Of a stretch of DNA of 64,000 nt, positions 21,704 through 28,077 are shown in pieces; the first letter of the stretch is position 1, and each line of letters starts with the position of its first letter. This DNA is from Nanobdellota archaeon (lineage in GTDB: Archaea; Nanobdellota; Nanobdellia; Pacearchaeales; GW2011-AR1): the NCBI GenBank assembly GCA_018815925.1, contig JAHIWS010000019.1, forward strand, positions 252-64,251. The letters run 5' to 3'. The notes below the pieces were generated by a model. It did not search any database. It was not told the origin of the DNA and saw only the letters and a list, made by a program, of their open reading frames with translations. The position numbers and the translations under genes are program-made.

Positions 21704-22939
21704 TCACCACCTAAAATCTTTTTTTAAATATCTATAAAAAGTTGCATACCAAATAATAGGATAAAATGCTAAAAACACTAACATATAAAAAATAAGATTC
21801 AAAAACCTCCCAAAAGTAATTCTATTATAAAATTTAGTTTTAGTCAACACATATCTATAATATATTAAAGATGAAAAAAATAAAATTATAAAATAAAATA
21901 TCATTACAGAAGGTATAAGATTTATTTCTTGCATATGAAAAAGAGAAATATTAGAAGCAATTGAATATCCTGTAGTTAAAATTCTCGTTAAAAAAGCTTT
22001 TCCAAGAATATAAGAAGAAAAAGCAAAACCCCCAATACTTAGAAAAATACTTAGAAAAACAAAAGGCATAACAAACCTCCCAAACAACCCTCTCCTTAAA
22101 AATTTATGTTTATATTTTTTAAGAGCCTGAATACCTCCAATTCCCCACCTAACTCTTTGCCTAAACCATTTTTTAAAAGTAGTTGGAACAACAGTAGAAA
22201 CACGTGCATCAAGACACATTCCTGTTTTATATCCCTTACTTAATAAATTCCAGGTAATATCAATATCCTCTGTAATAGAATCTTTATCAAAACCACCAAC
22301 TTTTACAACATAATCCTTCCTATATAAACTCAAAGGCCCATTAGTAACATAAACACTATCAATAAAATCTAATAATTTTCTATTCCACCCCATAATCATA
22401 TACTCTAATGCCTGAACCTTTCCATATAAATTACCTTCTTTATTCCTAACACTAACAAAAGAAGTAACAGCTGCCACCTTTTTATCATCAAAATAACCTG
22501 TAAGCTTTTTTAATGATTCCTTAGAGGGAAAACTATCTGCATCTGTTACAGCAATTAAATCACCATTAGCAATTTTAATAGCCTGGTTAAGAGAATCTGC
22601 TTTTCCAGAATTTTTCTTGTTTAATAATTCCAAATTACTATATTTCTTTAAAAGCCTCCCCACTATCTCTTTAGTTTTATCTGTACTCCCATCATTTACC
22701 ACAATTACTTGAAAATTATTCATAGGATAATCACAAGCCATAACATTTCTAATAGTTTCCTCGATGCTCTCTTCCTCATTAAATGCAGGAACAATAACAC
22801 TTATATTATATCCTAGGTTTGGTTTAGGATAAGAAAAAAGTCTTTTCCTATTTTTTACAGTAAGTATTATGAAAAAAGACATCATGTAAATAGAAATAAA
22901 CATTAATCCAAGATATACACTTGTTACAAATTCCACCAT
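21704..22939 (-). CDS. Processive family-2 glycosyltransferase (PgaC/NodC/chitin-synthase-like)
   Basis: 411 aa. VNDGSTD, TDADS, ITEDID and the QRVRW (QxxRW) motif. TM helices at both ends. Confidence 0.85.
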   Translation of the reverse strand: MVEFVTSVYLGLMFISIYMMSFFIILTVKNRKRLFSYPKPNLGYNISVIVPAFNEEESIEETIRNVMACDYPMNNFQVIVVNDGSTDKTKEIVGRLLKKYSNLELLNKKNSGKADSLNQAIKIANGDLIAVTDADSFPSKESLKKLTGYFDDKKVAAVTSFVSVRNKEGNLYGKVQALEYMIMGWNRKLLDFIDSVYVTNGPLSLYRKDYVVKVGGFDKDSITEDIDITWNLLSKGYKTGMCLDARVSTVVPTTFKKWFRQRVRWGIGGIQALKKYKHKFLRRGLFGRFVMPFVFLSIFLSIGGFAFSSYILGKAFLTRILTTGYSIASNISLFHMQEINLIPSVMIFYFIILFFSSLIYYRYVLTKTKFYNRITFGRFLNLIFYMLVFLAFYPIIWYATFYRYLKKDFRW

Positions 22940-22955: not shown

Positions 22956-23483
22956 TTATTCTTTAAAAGGATTATTGGAGTCATCCACATTAAAATAATC
23001 ATAAAATTCATCACTTAAACTCAATTCATGTGTATGACCTACTCTTTTTTTTCGAATTAAATTTAAATCAACAAATTTCTTAACATGATCGTAAGCCTTA
23101 TTTCCCCTAATCTTAATTATAACTGACTGCTTAATCGGATATTTAAATGCAATAATAGCCAAGGTTTCTTGTTCTGCCTTTGAAAATTCAGAACGTCCTG
23201 TAGCTAATTTATTAATTATGTCAGAATATTCTGGCTTAACATCCATTTTCCACATATCGCTTTTTTCAACAATTCTTAAAGCAGAATCTCCACCATCATA
23301 TTTCTCTTTAAGTTGCTCAAGTAAATCTCTTATTATGATTGGATTTAAATCACTTAAAGAAATAATATCAGCCATTCCAAGAAATCTACCGCTTACAAAA
23401 AGAATAGCTTCTATTCTTTTTAAATCCTCTTTTTCACAAGCCTCATCAACTTCATCTATTGTTTTACTGCTAACTTCCACCAT
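22956..23483 (-). CDS. scpB: Segregation and condensation protein B
   Basis: 175 aa. IEAILFVSGRFL..., ETLAIIAFKYPIKQSVIIKIRG: tandem winged-helix pattern of ScpB. Confidence 0.75.
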   Translation of the reverse strand: MVEVSSKTIDEVDEACEKEDLKRIEAILFVSGRFLGMADIISLSDLNPIIIRDLLEQLKEKYDGGDSALRIVEKSDMWKMDVKPEYSDIINKLATGRSEFSKAEQETLAIIAFKYPIKQSVIIKIRGNKAYDHVKKFVDLNLIRKKRVGHTHELSLSDEFYDYFNVDDSNNPFKE

Positions 23484-23530: not shown

Positions 23531-23830
23531 TTACCCATAATTAGTAATTAGTCTTTTCTTAGTTTTTCTACCTAAAATCAAATTAGCAGTAAGAGAAGAA
23601 ATATTATATCTTGAACTTACCAAAAATCTAATTTCTTCTTCTAAAAAAGGTAGATTCATTCCAGGAGCAGAATTAAAAAAAGATCTCCATTTATTATCTT
23701 TTTTTATTCCCAAAATAACAATATCTTGGGAAACTCTTCCTTCTGTTTTAAAAATATCTGCAGGAGTAAGTGAAACTGCAACATAATAATCTTCTGTTCT
23801 AAAAATATCGTAACTTATACTTTTTTTCAT
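23531..23830 (-). CDS. hypothetical protein
   Basis: 99-aa ATG ORF; no motif. Confidence 0.4.
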   Translation of the reverse strand: MKKSISYDIFRTEDYYVAVSLTPADIFKTEGRVSQDIVILGIKKDNKWRSFFNSAPGMNLPFLEEEIRFLVSSRYNISSLTANLILGRKTKKRLITNYG

Positions 23831-23864: not shown

Positions 23865-25364
23865 CTAAACCTTAAATCTCAAAATACTGCCAATTCCACT
23901 AAGGTTTTTAAACTGATCTCCTTCTTCTGTCTCTGTAGAAACAATTTCTACTTTTGCCCCAGTATCTTCAGCTAGTTTAGATAATTCTTTTACAATCTTC
24001 TTAGAAGTTTCCTTAGAAAGAATCAAAGTATCGACAGCACCATATTTTAAAGCTTGTTCTGTATCTGGTTCTTTTAAAGTAGCCATTTCAGGATTTCTAC
24101 CCAAAGTATCAAAAAATTTCTCTAAAAGTTTTTTCTCATACATTATTTCCTGACTTGCTAAAATATCTTGAGATTTCATTACAAGCTCTTTAAGACCACT
24201 TCCAGAAGTATCTCCTACATCAATCCTACCAATAACTTTCTCTCTAAGTTTTGTAGCCATATACTCTCCATCAAGAAACTCATCTTTTGTTGGAATCGGT
24301 CCTCCAACCAAAATCCCTTTTAATTTCTTATTATCAAAAAAAATCTTTTTCATTTCCTCTGCAATTCTTTTATAAAATTCCTTTGTGAGACCTTCTGTTA
24401 TTCTATGAAATCTTTGAGATGAATTATGGACAAGAAATCCGTTTGCAAAAAAGTTTTTACCTTCTGTTTCTATATCTATTAAATTAAAATTTCCTTCTTT
24501 TTGTTTTATATCAATTACTTTTAATTCTAAAACACCATAATTATTAGAACAAATTAATATGTCACCTTCTTTTAAGTCCTTTGCAATAATTTCCTTAATT
24601 CCATGCTTATCTTTTTTAAAAAAAGTATGATCTAAAGATGAAATAATAGATTCTTCATCTTCAACAAAAATTTCTAGAACTTTATTTTTAATAACCTCCC
24701 ACTTATTTTCTACTCTTGTGAAAATAATTTTATTACTCTTAATATCCAACGCCCTTATTTTATCAGTTAAGTTCAAATCAGCTATATCCTTATTCCCTTT
24801 ATTTAAACCAACCCAACTATTAGGTGCTAGGCATTGACCTCCAGCCCGAACCTTGCTAGGAACTCCTGAAGTCATCTTTTGAAGAACCTCTATTCTCTTC
24901 CCCTCAAGCAGTCCAATAGCTGCTTCCTTTCTATCCATAACAAGCAAACCAAAAACTTCTGTAACCTCCAGCATTTCTTTTAATGCATCTAAAACAAATT
25001 CTTTATCACACCTATAAATTCTAATCTTCAGAGGCATAGGTGGTTCAATATCCCAGAGTTGTAAATCTTGTTGCCCTTCAATTTTTGATATATTCCCTGC
25101 AAAAAGTGCTAAACCATTTTCAGGTGTTTTCTTCAAACTCTTTAAATGCCTAACAATTTTTTCAAGAGCCTCAATAACATTTTTTCTTGTAGCAGTTGAT
25201 TTAATATTTTTAGCAGTACTCTTTTCTGCCTCAAGCTGCCTTTGTACAGAATTCACATCATACCCTGCAGAAATATAAACAGTAATTAACTCTGTATGTC
25301 TCCCATGGTGTTTTTCCAATTCTTCTATTGTCTCCTGTAATTCATCTCTTGACAAAACTGTCAT
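23865..25364 (-). CDS. prf1: Peptide chain release factor aRF1, interrupted by a mini-intein
   Basis: NIKS (AKNIKST), YxCxxxF (IYRCDKEF) and GGQ...SSQRF motifs. The track start 25418 is TTG. ATG 25364 (MTVLSRDELQETIEEL) lies 22-30 nt downstream of a TTTTATAAA box. Confidence 0.92.
   Translation of the reverse strand: MTVLSRDELQETIEELEKHHGRHTELITVYISAGYDVNSVQRQLEAEKSTAKNIKSTATRKNVIEALEKIVRHLKSLKKTPENGLALFAGNISKIEGQQDLQLWDIEPPMPLKIRIYRCDKEFVLDALKEMLEVTEVFGLLVMDRKEAAIGLLEGKRIEVLQKMTSGVPSKVRAGGQCLAPNSWVGLNKGNKDIADLNLTDKIRALDIKSNKIIFTRVENKWEVIKNKVLEIFVEDEESIISSLDHTFFKKDKHGIKEIIAKDLKEGDILICSNNYGVLELKVIDIKQKEGNFNLIDIETEGKNFFANGFLVHNSSQRFHRITEGLTKEFYKRIAEEMKKIFFDNKKLKGILVGGPIPTKDEFLDGEYMATKLREKVIGRIDVGDTSGSGLKELVMKSQDILASQEIMYEKKLLEKFFDTLGRNPEMATLKEPDTEQALKYGAVDTLILSKETSKKIVKELSKLAEDTGAKVEIVSTETEEGDQFKNLSGIGSILRFKV
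24423..24833 (-). mobile_element. 137-aa mini-intein inserted after GGQ of aRF1
   Basis: ...RAGGQ|CLAPNSWVGL...SSLDHTFF...NLIDIETEGKNFFANGFLVHN|SSQRF. Cys1, terminal His-Asn and +1 Ser are present. There is no room for a homing-endonuclease domain. Excision restores GGQSSQRF. Confidence 0.85.
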
Positions 25365-25385
25365 AATAAGAATAAAACTAGGGGG

Positions 25386-25394
25386 TTTATAAAA
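25386..25394 (-). promoter_or_regulatory. TATA-like box for aRF1 (leaderless spacing)
   Basis: Minus strand TTTTATAAA, 22-30 nt upstream of ATG 25364. Confidence 0.35.
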
Positions 25395-25404
25395 TTTAGT
25401 CAAT

Positions 25405-25674
25405 TTAATCAAGTCCAACCAATAATCCTTCTAAATCTTTATAAAATAATTGCCTTTTTTCTAGAGTTGTTAAAAGAGTATATTTTTCCTGATCTTTTTC
25501 TTGATAAGACAATAAACCTAAAAAATAATAATTTCCCTCTTTTCTATCTTTTACCTGAACTATTTTTTTAGAGTGTCTCTGTACTTCTTCTCTGTTATTT
25601 TCTATTGTTCCTTCTAATTGAATCTCAACAAAAACAGAAGGAATAGTATATCTTTTTTTAGCCATTTTAAACAA
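25405..25674 (-). CDS. hypothetical protein
   Basis: 89-aa ATG ORF between valS and prf1; no motif. Confidence 0.4.
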   Translation of the reverse strand: MFKMAKKRYTIPSVFVEIQLEGTIENNREEVQRHSKKIVQVKDRKEGNYYFLGLLSYQEKDQEKYTLLTTLEKRQLFYKDLEGLLVGLD

Positions 25675-25728: not shown

Positions 25729-28026
25729 TTAAACAATATTGTGTGTAGCTATTAAATCTTTCTTAAATTCATCTAAAAATTTAGGTATTTTAATTTCTCT
25801 AATTTCATCTCTTAATGAAATTCCTTTTTCTTTTTTCTTTTTCCAAACTTCACTATTAAATTTAATCAACTCATTAAAAATTTTAATATCTTCTTTATTT
25901 TGTTTTATATCTAATTTTTTAGGCCATGAAGAAATATGGATACTTTTTTGTTTTTCTTTTTTCTCAAAATATTCTTGATAAATCTCCTCTGTAATAAAAG
26001 GAATAATTGGAGCCATTAATTTCAATAAAATTAAAAGAGAATTATAAAGTGTAAAAAATGCAGATTGTTTTTCATGATTTGTCCCATTATAAACCCTTTT
26101 TTTAATAAGCTCTAAATAATTATCGCAAAAGATATGCCAAAAAAAGTTACTAGTTTCTAATTTAACTTTATTATATTCATAATTCTTAAAATTCTTAGTA
26201 CAAATTTCAATCAAATCATTTAATCTAGATAAAAACAACCTATCTGTTTCAATTAAATTCGCCTTTTTGGAATTATAATTTTTAAGATTCATAAAGACAA
26301 ATCTAGATGCATTAAACAATTTTATCATAAATTTTTTCCCAGCAACTAAATCTTGTTCTTGATAATTAACATCACTTCCTAAACTAAACCCTGCTGCCCA
26401 AAATCTCAAGGCATCTGCCCCATATTCTTCTAAAAGTTTTTTAGGCTCAATTCCTGTTCCTTTAGACTTTGACATTTTTTCTCCTCCAAGTTTTGTATAA
26501 CCTGAAATCATAATATTTTTCCAAGGCAATTTTTTCTCAGATAAATAACTCCTAACAATTGTGTAAAAAGCCCAAGTTCTAATTATATCATGTGCCTGAG
26601 GTCTTAAGGAATACGGAACTTTAATTTCATTATTAATAAGAGAACTAGCAATTTGAGGAGTCAAAGAAGATGTTGCCCATGTATCAAGAACTTTTTCTTC
26701 TCCTTTAGCTTCTTTTTTACACTTAGAACATATTTTTTTAGTTTGTAAAGGATCAACAGGCAATTCATTTTCTTTTGCTAAAATAAGTTCATTACAATCT
26801 TTACAATGCCAAACAGGAAAAGGAATTCCAAAATGTCTTTCTCTAGAAATACTCCAATCCCATTCTAAACCATTGACCCAATTTTCATATCTCTTATACA
26901 TATATTTAGGGTACCAATTAATTTTTTTCCCTTGAGAAATCCAAGTTTTTTTATTATCTAAAATCTTAATAAACCATTGTTCTGTGGGAAGAAATTCAAT
27001 TTCAGTTCCACATTTATCATGAACATTAACAACATTGGTTATTTGTTTTTGATCTTGAATCAATGTTTTTTCCTTAAGATCTTGAAGAATTTTTTTTCTA
27101 GCTTCTTTAATCTTTAATCCTTTATATTCACCCTCTTTAATTGTTCCATTTGTATTTAAAATAATTTTTTCAACAAGTTTGTACCTGTTTATCGCATCAA
27201 CATCAAATTTATCCCCATAACTACAAACCATCAAAGCCCCTGTACCTTTCCCAATATCAGCAGATTTATCAGCAATAATAGGAACTTCAAAATCAAATAA
27301 GGCCACTTTTGCCTTTTTACCAATTATTTTCTTATATCTATTATCATCAGGATGAACAAAAACAGCAACACAAGCTCCAAGTAATTCAGGCCTAGTTGTT
27401 GCAATTAAAAGATCTTTATCTTCACATTTAAATTTCAAAGTAGAAAACAAGCTATCTTGTTCTTTATCTTCTAATTCTGCTTGAGCAATAGTTGTCTGGC
27501 ACTCAGGACACCAAATTGTTGGAAATTCTTTTTTATAAGCTAGTCTTTTATTATATAAATCAATAAAAGCCTTTTGAGAAATTTTTTGGGTTTTTTTATC
27601 AATTGTAGAATAATAAATATTATAATCTGCACTTATTCCTAAATCTTTATATCCTTTAATAAAATCAGGAGTTATCTTCTTAAGAGTTTTAAGACAAAGC
27701 TCAATAAACTTAGCCCGAGACATGCTCTTACTTTTAATTTTATTTATTTTTTCAACATATCTCTCTGTAGGTAATCCATTATCATCTGTTCCAAATCCAT
27801 AAAAAACAGCTCCTTTAAACATCCTCATAAATCTAGCAATAAAATCTTGTTGAGAATAAGAAAAAGCATGCCCCATATGCATTGCTCCAGAAACATAAGG
27901 TGGAGGAGTATCAATAGAAAAAACAGGTTTTTTATTACTAGAATCAAATCTATAGATTTTCTCTTTTTCCCAAAATTTTTTCCATTTTTCTTCAACCTGT
28001 TTAAAATCATATTTGTTCTTAGACAT
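25729..28026 (-). CDS. valS: Valyl-tRNA synthetase
   Basis: TPPPYVSGAMHMGHAF (HIGH region), TTRPELLGAC (editing domain), KMSKSKG. The track start 28041 is GTG, so ATG 28026 is preferred. Confidence 0.88.
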   Translation of the reverse strand: MSKNKYDFKQVEEKWKKFWEKEKIYRFDSSNKKPVFSIDTPPPYVSGAMHMGHAFSYSQQDFIARFMRMFKGAVFYGFGTDDNGLPTERYVEKINKIKSKSMSRAKFIELCLKTLKKITPDFIKGYKDLGISADYNIYYSTIDKKTQKISQKAFIDLYNKRLAYKKEFPTIWCPECQTTIAQAELEDKEQDSLFSTLKFKCEDKDLLIATTRPELLGACVAVFVHPDDNRYKKIIGKKAKVALFDFEVPIIADKSADIGKGTGALMVCSYGDKFDVDAINRYKLVEKIILNTNGTIKEGEYKGLKIKEARKKILQDLKEKTLIQDQKQITNVVNVHDKCGTEIEFLPTEQWFIKILDNKKTWISQGKKINWYPKYMYKRYENWVNGLEWDWSISRERHFGIPFPVWHCKDCNELILAKENELPVDPLQTKKICSKCKKEAKGEEKVLDTWATSSLTPQIASSLINNEIKVPYSLRPQAHDIIRTWAFYTIVRSYLSEKKLPWKNIMISGYTKLGGEKMSKSKGTGIEPKKLLEEYGADALRFWAAGFSLGSDVNYQEQDLVAGKKFMIKLFNASRFVFMNLKNYNSKKANLIETDRLFLSRLNDLIEICTKNFKNYEYNKVKLETSNFFWHIFCDNYLELIKKRVYNGTNHEKQSAFFTLYNSLLILLKLMAPIIPFITEEIYQEYFEKKEKQKSIHISSWPKKLDIKQNKEDIKIFNELIKFNSEVWKKKKEKGISLRDEIREIKIPKFLDEFKKDLIATHNIV

Positions 28027-28077
28027 AAGGAAAAAAGACACAACAACTTTTAAAAACTATCTATAATTCACTATCTT

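What the first reader, a model, noticed from the sequence alone, without database searches (positions are those of the whole stretch)
24423..24833. Mini-intein inserted in the catalytic GGQ loop of release factor aRF1
Seen in sequence: the aRF1 ORF reads ...GVPSKVRAGGQ | CLAPNSWVGL...(137 aa)...GKNFFANGFLVHN | SSQRFHRITEG.... Deleting the 137 residues restores GGQSSQRF, the universal GGQ-S-x-RF peptidyl-tRNA hydrolysis loop.

The insert begins with Cys, ends in His-Asn and is followed by a Ser +1 nucleophile. It has a block-B-like ...SSLDHTFF and a block F/G-like IDIETEGKNFFANGFLVHN. At 137 aa it is too short for a homing endonuclease, so it is a mini-intein (Hint domain only).

Inference: the unspliced precursor has its catalytic loop split. 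The window's only class-I release factor would therefore depend on protein splicing, which could act as a post-translational checkpoint on translation termination. From memory, aRF1 is not among the classical intein hosts (polymerases, helicases, RNR, RadA, VMA and others). I cannot check this here.
Basis: partly seen in the sequence, partly recalled or inferred. Interest (0 to 1): 0.75.

Follow-up and report, generated by a model that had tools for sequence, protein, structure and literature searches.

The report
Mini-intein splitting archaeal release factor aRF1
The gene for the archaeal protein that ends translation (aRF1) is interrupted, exactly at its catalytic GGQ motif, by a small self-splicing protein element (a mini-intein). 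The element is real and textbook in form, and it belongs to a large family in DPANN archaea that I could not find described in the literature I was able to search.

Summary
On the minus strand, window 24423-24833 encodes a 137-aa insert (Cys1…His-Asn, followed by Ser) inside an aRF1 gene (23865-25364). Removing it restores GGQSSQRF and one continuous eRF1 domain-2 match.

The insert passes Pfam's intein cut-off and models as a HINT fold close to solved mini-inteins. Its splicing residues (C1, S66-x-x-H69, D120, H136-N137) never vary across 56 homologous mini-inteins that are otherwise only 46% identical.

It is not a one-off. Hundreds of aRF1 genes in Pacearchaeota, Woesearchaeota, Nanoarchaeota and Aenigmatarchaeota carry an intein at this codon, as mini forms or full-length forms with a LAGLIDADG homing endonuclease. 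Close relatives have the precise empty site. The distribution is patchy, and intein and host-gene divergence disagree, so this looks like a selfish homing element and its endonuclease-less descendant.

Nothing supports the proposed "termination checkpoint", although it is not excluded. Ten literature searches found no description of an aRF1 or eRF1 intein.

Two side findings:
- Occupied alleles always encode the +1 Ser as TCN, whereas 60% of empty alleles use AGY.
- Many intein-bearing Aenigmatarchaeota aRF1 genes would splice to GG[M/W]-SQ (GGxSQ) instead of GGQ.

Verdict: a real feature and a new member of a known kind.

The parts
23865..25364 (-). aRF1 precursor gene (499 codons plus stop; ATG at 25364-25362, stop at 23867-23865). 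The mechanical ORF extends to a TTG at 25418.
   Evidence: P0001, 100% identical, 499 aa. TIGR03676 aRF-1 equivalog 385 bits, cut-off 234.7. Pfam eRF1_1, eRF1_2 and eRF1_3.
24834..25364 (-). N-extein (177 aa): aRF1 domain 1 (NIKS, YxCxxxF) and the first part of domain 2, ending in G175-G176-Q177 (codons 24842-24834).
   Evidence: Colinear alignment to 4af1 and 3agk.
24423..24833 (-). Class-1 mini-intein, 137 aa, HINT domain only, no homing endonuclease.
   Evidence: translation. (Pfam Intein_splicing 39.8 bits, above the 35.8 cut-off). (AF2 pLDDT about 85-93, all beta). (Foldseek: NpuDnaB TM 0.87 / rmsd 1.9 A; gp41-1 TM 0.85-0.90; TvoVMA). (lacks the ~295-aa LAGLIDADG block of full-length relatives).
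24831..24833 (-). Block A: Cys1 (TGC), the nucleophile for the N-S acyl shift.
   Evidence: Invariant in 56/56 mini-inteins.
24627..24638 (-). Block B: S66-L-D-H69 (Ser variant of the T-x-x-H motif).
   Evidence: S66 and H69 invariant in 56/56.
24474..24476 (-). Block F: Asp120 (within NLIDIETEG).
   Evidence: D120 and E122 invariant in 56/56.
24423..24428 (-). Block G: penultimate His136 and terminal Asn137 (CAT AAT). The Asn cyclises to release the intein.
   Evidence: Invariant in 56/56. TIGR01443 above its cut-off.
24420..24422 (-). +1 Ser codon (TCA), the C-extein nucleophile and also the Ser of GGQS. It belongs to the TCN class found in every occupied allele.
23868..24422 (-). C-extein (185 aa): the rest of aRF1 domain 2 (SSQRFHRITEG...) and domain 3.
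25729..28041 (-). Context only: valine--tRNA ligase gene immediately upstream. The valS -> aRF1 order is also kept at a distant intein-bearing locus (L167).
   Evidence: NF009687, 969 bits for the window and 901 bits for L167.

Best explanation
Window 24423-24833 (-) encodes a canonical class-1 mini-intein sitting in frame in the single aRF1 gene of the window, between Gln177 of the catalytic GGQ motif and Ser of GGQS.

Mechanism (inferred from the established intein pathway):
1. The gene is translated as a 499-aa precursor whose peptidyl-tRNA-hydrolysis loop is split by a ~15-kDa HINT domain.
2. Cys1 undergoes an N-S acyl shift.
3. The +1 Ser attacks the thioester.
4. Asn137 cyclises, assisted by His136 and Asp120.
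5. An O-N shift leaves a normal peptide bond. The products are a 362-aa aRF1 with an intact GGQSSQRF loop and the free intein.

Origin (shown by comparison): this is one allele state of a mobile intein family that targets this one codon boundary of aRF1 in DPANN archaea. A full-length lineage carries an apparently intact LAGLIDADG homing endonuclease. The window's intein belongs to an old lineage that lost the endonuclease once. The likely reason it persists is that only a perfectly precise deletion would be tolerated in an essential gene. Selection keeps it able to splice, and there is no sign that it does anything for the host.
For: Identity as an intein:
- Pfam and NCBIfam intein models pass their curated cut-offs.
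- The AF2 model is confident across the insert, and Foldseek matches solved mini-inteins at TM 0.85-0.90.
- The best sequence matches in the PDB are inteins (gp41-1, PhoCDC21, TvoVMA).

Exact insertion:
- Excision restores a full eRF1_2 domain.
- 10 of the 120 best protein hits and 52 species-representative genomes have the contiguous sequence GGQSSQRF at this point.

Constraint for splicing:
- C1, S66, H69, D120, E122, H136 and N137 are invariant in 56 mini-inteins that average 46% identity, while their exteins average 71%.
- dN/dS is 0.17-0.43 for the intein and 0.03-0.10 for the extein in the closest non-identical pairs.

Homing-element behaviour:
- Among the 120 nearest aRF1 proteins, 57 carry a mini-intein, 53 a full-length intein and 10 are empty, all at the same site.
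- The LAGLIDADG motifs are intact in 49/51 full-length forms.
- Full-length inteins are as conserved as their hosts (71% vs 73%), and the intein is more similar than the extein in 36% of pairs.
- Allele states are interleaved on the extein tree, with at least 29 occupancy changes.
- Intein and extein similarity are uncorrelated for mini-inteins (rho 0.06).
- In 18 pairs the intein is much less diverged at synonymous sites than its host gene, against 2 pairs the other way.
- The window's closest exteins are intein-free (80-83% identity).

Single endonuclease loss: mini and full-length forms separate with one state change on the splicing-domain tree.

The window has no second aRF1 and no other intein.
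Against: - Splicing itself has not been demonstrated. Everything about activity is inferred from conserved residues and from the essentiality of aRF1.
- In the context of the whole protein the Pfam Intein_splicing score (28.7 bits) is below the cut-off. Only the excised insert passes (39.8 bits).
- The neighbour-joining trees are simple, and synonymous sites in this 28%-GC genome are close to saturation. The horizontal-transfer signal is therefore suggestive rather than rigorous.
- How a lineage without an endonuclease could move between hosts is not explained.
- A second aRF1 elsewhere in the genome cannot be excluded from a 64-kb window.
Confidence: 0.88

Rival explanations
1. Regulatory intein. 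Splicing is conditional on temperature, redox state, salt or a ligand. The supply of active aRF1, and hence translation termination, would then be gated after translation. The intein is kept because this benefits the host.
For: - The intein sits in the catalytic loop, so the precursor must be inactive (inference).
- The mini lineage is old and has persisted without an endonuclease, under purifying selection.
- Conditional splicing is documented for other archaeal inteins, for example RadA (title and abstract of PMC11409957, listed).
Against: - Nothing specific to a switch was found. Apart from Cys1, no Cys is conserved in the intein: C95 of the window's intein is not conserved. The +1 residue is Ser and the flanking extein has no Cys, so a disulfide trap is not apparent.
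- The closest relatives of the host gene do without the intein, and occupancy is scattered across the extein tree. That is what a parasite gives, not a fixed regulator.
- Persistence and conservation of the splicing residues are fully explained by the lethality of a non-splicing insert in an essential gene.
Confidence: 0.1
2. The mini-intein is still mobile. It would be mobilised in trans by the LAGLIDADG endonuclease of the full-length inteins that target the same site, or by ordinary recombination of the aRF1 region between lineages, rather than being a purely vertical remnant.
For: - Intein and extein similarity are uncorrelated (rho 0.06). P0015's intein is 74% identical to the window's while the exteins are 66% identical.
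- In four mini-intein pairs the intein is less diverged than the extein at both synonymous and non-synonymous sites, for example L112/L126 with pS 0.39 vs 0.74.
- Near-identical hosts carry very different mini-inteins: L005/L134 have extein pN 0.03 and intein pN 0.37.
- All occupied alleles share TCN at +1.
Against: - The mini-intein has no endonuclease.
- Co-occurrence of both lineages in one cell has not been shown.
- Saturation and AT bias inflate the noise in pS, and the trees are simple NJ trees.
Confidence: 0.35
3. A dead or non-splicing insertion. Either this aRF1 copy is a pseudogene or dispensable paralogue, or the HINT domain is a permanent insert and the real release factor is encoded elsewhere.
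For: Only 64 kb of the genome is visible, so a second aRF1 cannot be excluded (one search covers the window only).
Against: - The ORF is intact and all catalytic intein residues are present and invariant across the family.
- The extein is under strong purifying selection (dN/dS 0.03-0.10) and keeps NIKS, YxCxxxF and GGQ.
- The gene sits in conserved valS -> aRF1 synteny.
- No assembly among the 62 species-representative loci gave two aRF1 loci. That scan was limited to the chosen patterns.
Confidence: 0.03

Closest known systems
Canonical class-1 mini-inteins (e.g. Npu/Ssp DnaB mini-inteins, cyanophage-like gp41-1, TvoVMA, PhoCDC21-1)
   Same: - HINT fold: Foldseek TM 0.74-0.90, rmsd 1.9-2.7 A.
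- Cys1, block-B His, block-F Asp, terminal His-Asn and a +1 nucleophile.
- Size of about 130-170 aa with no endonuclease.
- Inserted in a catalytic motif of an essential, highly conserved protein.
   Different: - The host protein is aRF1 (site GGQ|S), for which I found no published intein.
- Sequence identity to solved inteins is only about 20-27%.
- Block B has Ser in place of the usual Thr, in all 56 family members.
Full-length LAGLIDADG inteins and the homing cycle (e.g. Sce VMA1/PI-SceI; haloarchaeal MCM and PolB inteins)
   Same: The same site in related genomes shows all three states of the homing cycle: empty, endonuclease-bearing and endonuclease-less. Both LAGLIDADG motifs are present in 49/51 full-length forms. 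The distribution is patchy relative to the host tree.
   Different: - The window's copy has no endonuclease.
- The mini forms here are one old monophyletic lineage rather than many recent decay products.
- Some full-length forms carry an extra HTH_3 domain.
Inteins in other archaeal translation factors (aIF2/eIF5B intein)
   Same: An intein in a core translation GTPase or factor of archaea. aIF2 is listed with 15 inteins in the prokaryotic census.
   Different: A different host, site and step of translation (initiation rather than termination). The census states that core translation components 'contain few inteins' and does not mention release factors in its main text.
Conditional (regulatory) inteins such as Pyrococcus/Thermococcus RadA or mycobacterial SufB
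   Same: The intein sits in an active site, so the precursor is inactive. In principle the rate of splicing could set the level of active protein.
   Different: No condition-sensing feature was found here, and no experiment exists. The distribution looks parasitic.

Membership tests
Class-1 intein (HINT self-splicing domain) | First residue is Cys or Ser (nucleophile for the N-S/N-O acyl shift) | tested here: met
   Cys1, TGC at 24833-24831. Invariant in 56/56 relatives.
Class-1 intein (HINT self-splicing domain) | Block B T-x-x-H motif | tested here: met
   S66-L-D-H69 (Ser in place of Thr). Both S66 and H69 are invariant in 56/56.
Class-1 intein (HINT self-splicing domain) | Block F Asp and block G penultimate His plus terminal Asn | tested here: met
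   D120, H136 and N137 are invariant. TIGR01443 intein_Cterm 18.1 bits, cut-off 15.6.
Class-1 intein (HINT self-splicing domain) | +1 residue of the C-extein is Ser, Thr or Cys | tested here: met
   Ser (TCA, 24422-24420). Ser in all 230 or so junctions parsed.
Class-1 intein (HINT self-splicing domain) | Curated profile match and HINT fold | tested here: met
   Pfam Intein_splicing 39.8 bits (cut-off 35.8) and PT-HINT 29.0 bits (cut-off 27.7) on the insert; 28.7 bits, below the cut-off, when the whole precursor is scored. The AF2 model plus Foldseek matches solved inteins at TM 0.85-0.90.
Class-1 intein (HINT self-splicing domain) | In-frame insertion whose removal restores the contiguous host sequence seen in intein-free orthologues | tested here: met
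   GGQ|SSQRF. 52 empty alleles in species-representative genomes and 10 among the best protein hits read GGQSSQRF. The eRF1_2 match is restored.
Class-1 intein (HINT self-splicing domain) | Protein splicing demonstrated (ligated exteins plus free intein) | not testable with these tools
   Needs expression followed by western blot or mass spectrometry. Inferred only from conserved residues and host essentiality.
Mini-intein (no homing endonuclease) | No LAGLIDADG, HNH or other endonuclease domain between blocks B and F | tested here: met
   137 aa with no endonuclease family hit. Aligns to full-length relatives with a clean gap of about 295 aa where their LAGLIDADG domain lies.
Autonomously homing intein | Encodes its own site-specific homing endonuclease | tested here: not met
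   None in the window's copy. Relatives at the same site carry PF14528 with both motifs intact in 49/51.
aRF1 / eRF1 class-I release factor (host protein) | Three-domain eRF1 architecture with NIKS, YxCxxxF and GGQ; equivalog-level profile score | tested here: met
   TIGR03676 385 bits for the precursor, cut-off 234.7. Pfam eRF1_1, eRF1_2 and eRF1_3. KNIKS, YRCDKEF and GGQ are visible in the sequence. Foldseek top hits are aRF1 and eRF1.
Conditional / regulatory intein | A sensing feature (e.g. a conserved Cys pair forming a redox trap) or condition-dependent splicing | tested here: inconclusive
   No conserved second Cys in the intein or adjacent extein. Condition dependence cannot be tested with these tools.

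The most novel reading that the evidence does not exclude
The aRF1 intein may be more than a passenger: long residence in the catalytic loop may have reshaped the loop itself.

In Aenigmatarchaeota, 84 of 116 intein-bearing aRF1 proteins have Met, Trp, Phe or Tyr in place of the 'universal' catalytic Gln at the -1 position. Almost all of these (81 of 84) have a Gln at +2 instead. Splicing would therefore produce GGxSQ, the catalytic motif so far described for Vms1-like release factors rather than classical aRF1/eRF1.

If the relocation was driven by the intein (selection on the -1 residue for splicing competing with catalysis), this would be a case of a selfish element re-engineering one of the most conserved active sites in biology. 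In the window's own lineage, the same dependence on splicing could gate translation termination.
Probability: 0.2. Interest if true: 0.85.

Novelty: new member of a known kind. Interest (0 to 1): 0.45.

Why it matters
- It adds a class-I release factor, split exactly at its peptidyl-tRNA-hydrolysis motif, to the list of intein hosts. Core translation proteins are reported to carry few inteins.
- In these DPANN archaea, which have very small genomes, every round of translation termination would depend on a protein-splicing step.
- The family offers all homing-cycle states at one site in hundreds of natural alleles. That makes it a good system for studying intein invasion, endonuclease loss and persistence, and target-site immunity (the TCN/AGY footprint).
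- Annotation pipelines often mislabel these essential genes as 'hypothetical protein', 'helix-turn-helix domain-containing protein' or 'LAGLIDADG family homing endonuclease'. This can make aRF1 look absent from DPANN genomes.
- The small, AT-rich, naturally Ser+1 mini-intein is also a candidate tool for protein engineering.
- The GGxSQ aRF1 alleles found on the way bear on how invariant the GGQ motif really is.

Tried and rejected
- A word-index homology search with the intein alone found nothing. The exhaustive HMMER search did work.
- I first thought mini-inteins with full-length-like N-termini (P0049, P0039, P0024) were recent independent endonuclease deletions. This is rejected: mini and full-length forms separate with one change on the splicing-domain tree, and identity between them is at most 49%.
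- I considered that the AGY +1 Ser codon marks one uninvaded clade. This is rejected: the character changes at least 22 times on the extein tree, close to the shuffled value of 25.2.
- I considered a broad co-conversion tract for the TCN footprint. This is unlikely, because the adjacent synonymous sites (-1, +3, +4 to +6) show no association.
- I first read the GGF, GGW and GGM junctions as loss of the catalytic Gln, or as a dead paralogue. This is revised. The proteins pass the aRF-1 equivalog model at 461-500 bits, sit in valS -> aRF1 synteny, and would splice to GGxSQ, a published catalytic motif of VLRF-1 families.
- Viral-contig scans found nothing, which is uninformative: intein-free GGMSQ or GGxSQ alleles and the window-type junction.
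- The supplementary tables of the intein census were not available.
- Ten literature searches found no aRF1 or eRF1 intein. Subscription-only papers and InBase were not searchable.
Full report
**1. The observation**

The finding's coordinates are exact, but the feature lies on the minus strand. The reverse complement of window 24423-24833 translates without stops to the 137 residues CLAPNSWVGL...GKNFFANGFLVHN. The plus strand is full of stops.

The insert lies inside ORF 23865..25418 (-). The 499-aa product starting at ATG 25364 is 100% identical to a public protein, P0001, which NCBI labels 'hypothetical protein, Nanoarchaeota archaeon', from a 64.4-kb contig.

Reading the DNA directly gives:
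- GGA GGT CAA (G-G-Q) at 24842-24834
- Cys1 TGC at 24833-24831
- CAT AAT (His-Asn) at 24428-24423
- the +1 Ser TCA at 24422-24420

**2. What it is**

The precursor scores 385 bits on NCBI's aRF-1 equivalog model, against a cut-off of 234.7. It carries Pfam eRF1 domains 1, 2 and 3, but the domain-2 match is broken.

The insert on its own passes the curated cut-offs of several intein models:
- Pfam Intein_splicing: 39.8 bits, cut-off 35.8, E=5e-10
- Pfam PT-HINT: 29.0 bits, cut-off 27.7
- TIGR01443 intein C-terminal region: 18.1 bits, cut-off 15.6

Deleting the insert in silico restores a single eRF1_2 match over profile positions 2-132 of 133. It also gives a gap-free alignment across GGQSxQRF with the solved aRF1 structures 4af1 and 3agk and with eukaryotic eRF1.

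An AlphaFold2 model of the precursor, built on 58 homologues, is confident across the insert (pLDDT about 85-93) and all-beta there. Foldseek returns aRF1 and eRF1 structures for the extein. For the insert it returns solved mini-inteins: NpuDnaB (TM 0.87, rmsd 1.9 A), gp41-1 (TM 0.85-0.90), TvoVMA, SspDnaB and PhoCDC21-1.

The window (28.5% GC) contains no second aRF1-like ORF and no other intein. The intein is even more AT-rich than its host gene (25.3% vs 33.8% GC).

**3. Is it functional?**

I extracted 56 homologous mini-inteins from aRF1 proteins. They average only 46% identity, while their exteins average 71%. The residues that never vary are the canonical splicing set: C1, S66 and H69 (block B, with Ser in place of the usual Thr), D120 and E122 (block F), and H136-N137 (block G). 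W45 and F128 are also invariant.

In the closest non-identical pairs, the intein has dN/dS of 0.17-0.43 and the extein 0.03-0.10. So the element is constrained, but less tightly than the release factor. That is what one expects of an insert that must still fold and splice because it interrupts an essential gene. Splicing itself has not been shown and cannot be tested here.

**4. It is one allele of a large mobile family**

The 120 best relatives of the precursor fall into three classes, all at the identical junction GGQ|C...HN|S:
- about 361 aa, with a contiguous GGQSSQRF
- about 494-541 aa, with a mini-intein
- about 789-873 aa, with a full-length intein carrying PF14528 LAGLIDADG; two of these also carry an HTH domain

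Full-length forms carry about 295 extra residues between the block-B and block-F regions, with both LAGLIDADG motifs (...GYYLGDG......GFFDAEGY...). Both motifs are intact in 49 of 51.

Among species-representative genomes carrying a close aRF1 relative (62 loci, 61 parsed), 52 are empty, 6 have a mini-intein and 3 have a full-length intein. Apart from a few evidently mis-binned contigs, all are labelled Pacearchaeota, Woesearchaeota or Nanoarchaeota.

An exhaustive HMMER search with the intein alone found its nearest relatives in aRF1 proteins. Beyond those it found only generic multi-HINT proteins and unrelated intein hosts. A further search showed the same insertion is widespread in Aenigmatarchaeota.

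**5. Evolutionary behaviour**

- The allele states are interleaved. On an extein tree, occupancy changes at least 29 times.
- The window's closest exteins (80-83% identity) are intein-free.
- For mini-inteins, intein and extein similarity are uncorrelated (rho 0.06). P0015's intein is 74% identical to the window's, while the exteins are 66% identical.
- In 18 mini-intein pairs, the intein's synonymous divergence is well below that of its host gene (for example L112/L126, pS 0.39 vs 0.74). Only 2 pairs show the reverse.
- Full-length inteins are as conserved as their hosts (71% vs 73%). In 36% of pairs the intein is the more similar of the two. That fits recent spread by homing.
- On a tree built from the splicing domain alone, mini and full-length forms separate with one state change (shuffled mean 36.7). 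The mini-inteins are therefore one old endonuclease-less lineage, not many fresh deletions. I had suspected the latter and now reject it.
- The trees are simple neighbour-joining trees, and synonymous sites are near saturation in these AT-rich genomes. The transfer signal is suggestive, not proven.

**6. Mechanism**

Inferred from the established class-1 pathway:
1. The 499-aa precursor has its GGQ loop split by a ~15-kDa HINT domain. It should be unable to place the loop in the peptidyl-transferase centre.
2. Cys1 forms a thioester.
3. The +1 Ser attacks the thioester.
4. Asn137 cyclises, helped by His136 and Asp120.
5. An O-N shift yields the 362-aa aRF1 with GGQSSQRF.

The location at the most conserved stretch of the gene is the usual consequence of homing endonucleases targeting invariant DNA.

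**7. The 'checkpoint' idea**

I found nothing that specifically supports conditional splicing:
- Apart from Cys1, no Cys is conserved in the intein (C95 of the window's copy is not conserved).
- The +1 residue is Ser, and the adjacent extein has no Cys.
- Close relatives do without the intein.

The idea remains possible but is not needed to explain persistence. I give it about 0.1.

**8. Known or new?**

Ten full-text searches found no paper describing an intein in aRF1 or eRF1. The queries included intein with aRF1, eRF1, 'peptide chain release factor', GGQ, DPANN and Pacearchaeota, several phrase variants, and Aenigma… with 'release factor'.

The main text of the large prokaryotic intein census lists aIF2 as the translation-factor host. 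It does not mention release factors, and it says core translation components 'contain few inteins'. Its supplements were not available. Surveys of eukaryotic inteins do not mention eRF1.

The sequences themselves are public. JGI's automatic annotation calls some of them 'peptide subunit release factor 1 (eRF1)/intein/homing endonuclease'. NCBI labels them variously as 'hypothetical protein', 'helix-turn-helix domain-containing protein', 'LAGLIDADG family homing endonuclease' or 'aRF-1'.

I therefore rate this a new member of a known kind: a textbook intein in a host and site that, as far as I could check, has not been described.

**9. Side finding A: a DNA footprint at the site**

In an unbiased pattern scan of metagenomes that left the +1 codon free, 92 of 92 distinct occupied junctions encode the +1 Ser as TCN. 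The same holds for the 10 occupied alleles from the species-representative genomes plus the window. Among the 52 empty alleles, 21 use TCN and 31 use AGY.

Over 36 nt on each side of the junction, only nucleotides +1 and +2 are associated with occupancy (p=4e-14). The neighbouring synonymous sites, including the +2 Ser codon, vary freely in both classes. AGY is not a single clade: it changes at least 22 times on the extein tree, against 25.2 when shuffled.

Two readings fit, and a cleavage assay would separate them:
- The LAGLIDADG enzyme needs T-C at the centre of its target, so AGY alleles are immune to homing.
- The bases next to the break are always copied from the donor allele. In addition, the TCN-to-AGY switch, which must pass through Thr or Cys, is blocked while an intein depends on the +1 Ser.

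**10. Side finding B: GGxSQ instead of GGQ**

Among intein-bearing aRF1 proteins of Aenigmatarchaeota, the residue before Cys1 is Met in 58, Trp in 24, Phe in 1, Tyr in 1 and Gln in only 32. The DNA confirms in-frame TTT and TTC codons in two unrelated contigs.

The change covaries with the C-extein. A non-Gln residue at -1 goes with Gln at +2 in 81 of 84 cases. Gln at -1 goes with Ala or Ser at +2 in 27 of 31. Four alleles have both Gln residues (GGQ|SQ), a plausible intermediate.

These are genuine aRF1 proteins:
- After in-silico splicing they score 461 and 500 bits on the aRF-1 equivalog model, over its full length.
- They align without gaps to 4af1, with KGGMSQARY opposite KGGQSAQRF.
- They keep YxCxxxF in 84 of 84 and NIKS in most.
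- One (P0179) sits in the same valS -> aRF1 synteny as the window's gene.

[quoted passage not shown] The simplest reading is that the catalytic Gln has moved two positions in these aRF1 proteins, so that the intein sits at GGx|SQ.

I could not determine whether intein-free members of that clade share the motif. So a causal link to the intein is speculation.

**11. Verdict**

The regulatory extension is unsupported. The feature is a canonical mini-intein, new as to host and site, with interest of about 0.45. The most novel reading still open is that the intein has co-evolved with the release factor's catalytic loop.

Noticed in passing
window 24420-24422 (+1 Ser codon TCA); loci L001-L166: Every intein-occupied aRF1 allele encodes the +1 Ser as TCN: 92/92 distinct metagenome junctions, plus 10/10 in species-representative genomes and the window. 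Among empty alleles, 21 use TCN and 31 use AGY. Only nucleotides +1 and +2 are associated with occupancy (p=4e-14), and AGY is scattered over the extein tree. Possible causes are homing-site immunity of AGY alleles, or donor-copying of the bases next to the break combined with a mutational path that is blocked while the intein needs the +1 Ser.
   Followed up: yes
Related proteins P0179, P0148, P0131, P0216-P0330; loci L167:10001-12445 and L168:3098-5725: In Aenigmatarchaeota, 84 of 116 intein-bearing aRF1 proteins have Met, Trp, Phe or Tyr at the position of the catalytic Gln of GGQ, and 81 of those 84 have Gln at +2. Splicing would give GGxSQ, the motif published for VLRF-1 families. The spliced proteins pass the aRF-1 equivalog model at 461-500 bits, and one sits in valS -> aRF1 synteny. 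Whether intein-free members of the clade share the motif is unknown.
   Followed up: partly
Public records for P0001, P0211, P0247, P0249, P0274, P0299 and others: Intein-bearing aRF1 genes are annotated inconsistently as 'hypothetical protein', 'helix-turn-helix domain-containing protein', 'LAGLIDADG family homing endonuclease', 'aRF-1' or 'Dom34'. An essential translation factor can therefore look absent from DPANN genome annotations.
   Followed up: no
Related proteins P0059, P0099, P0142 and many Aenigmatarchaeota alleles (870-975 aa): A subset of the full-length aRF1 inteins carries an extra XRE-type helix-turn-helix domain (PF01381, PF12844, PF13560) in addition to the LAGLIDADG domain.
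   Followed up: no
window 25365-25418 and 25405-25674 (-): The mechanical aRF1 ORF extends 18 codons upstream to a TTG at 25418, but the public protein P0001 and the homologues support the ATG at 25364. The extension overlaps an 89-aa TTG-start ORF (25405-25674) that has no family match. That ORF lies between valS and aRF1 and may not be a gene.
   Followed up: partly
Loci L015, L034, L056: Contigs carrying Pacearchaeota-type aRF1 genes (65-80% identical to the window's) are filed under 'Bacillota bacterium', 'Patescibacteria group bacterium' and 'Promethearchaeota archaeon' MAGs. This is probably binning contamination.
   Followed up: no
window 22956-23483 (-) and 21704-22939 (-): Two ORFs downstream of aRF1, beyond a 99-aa ORF with no family match (23531-23830), lies an ScpB homologue (TIGR00281, 93 bits, just above the 89.2 cut-off). 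It is followed by a family-2 glycosyltransferase. This is ordinary cellular context with nothing phage-like or plasmid-like around the intein-bearing gene.
   Followed up: no
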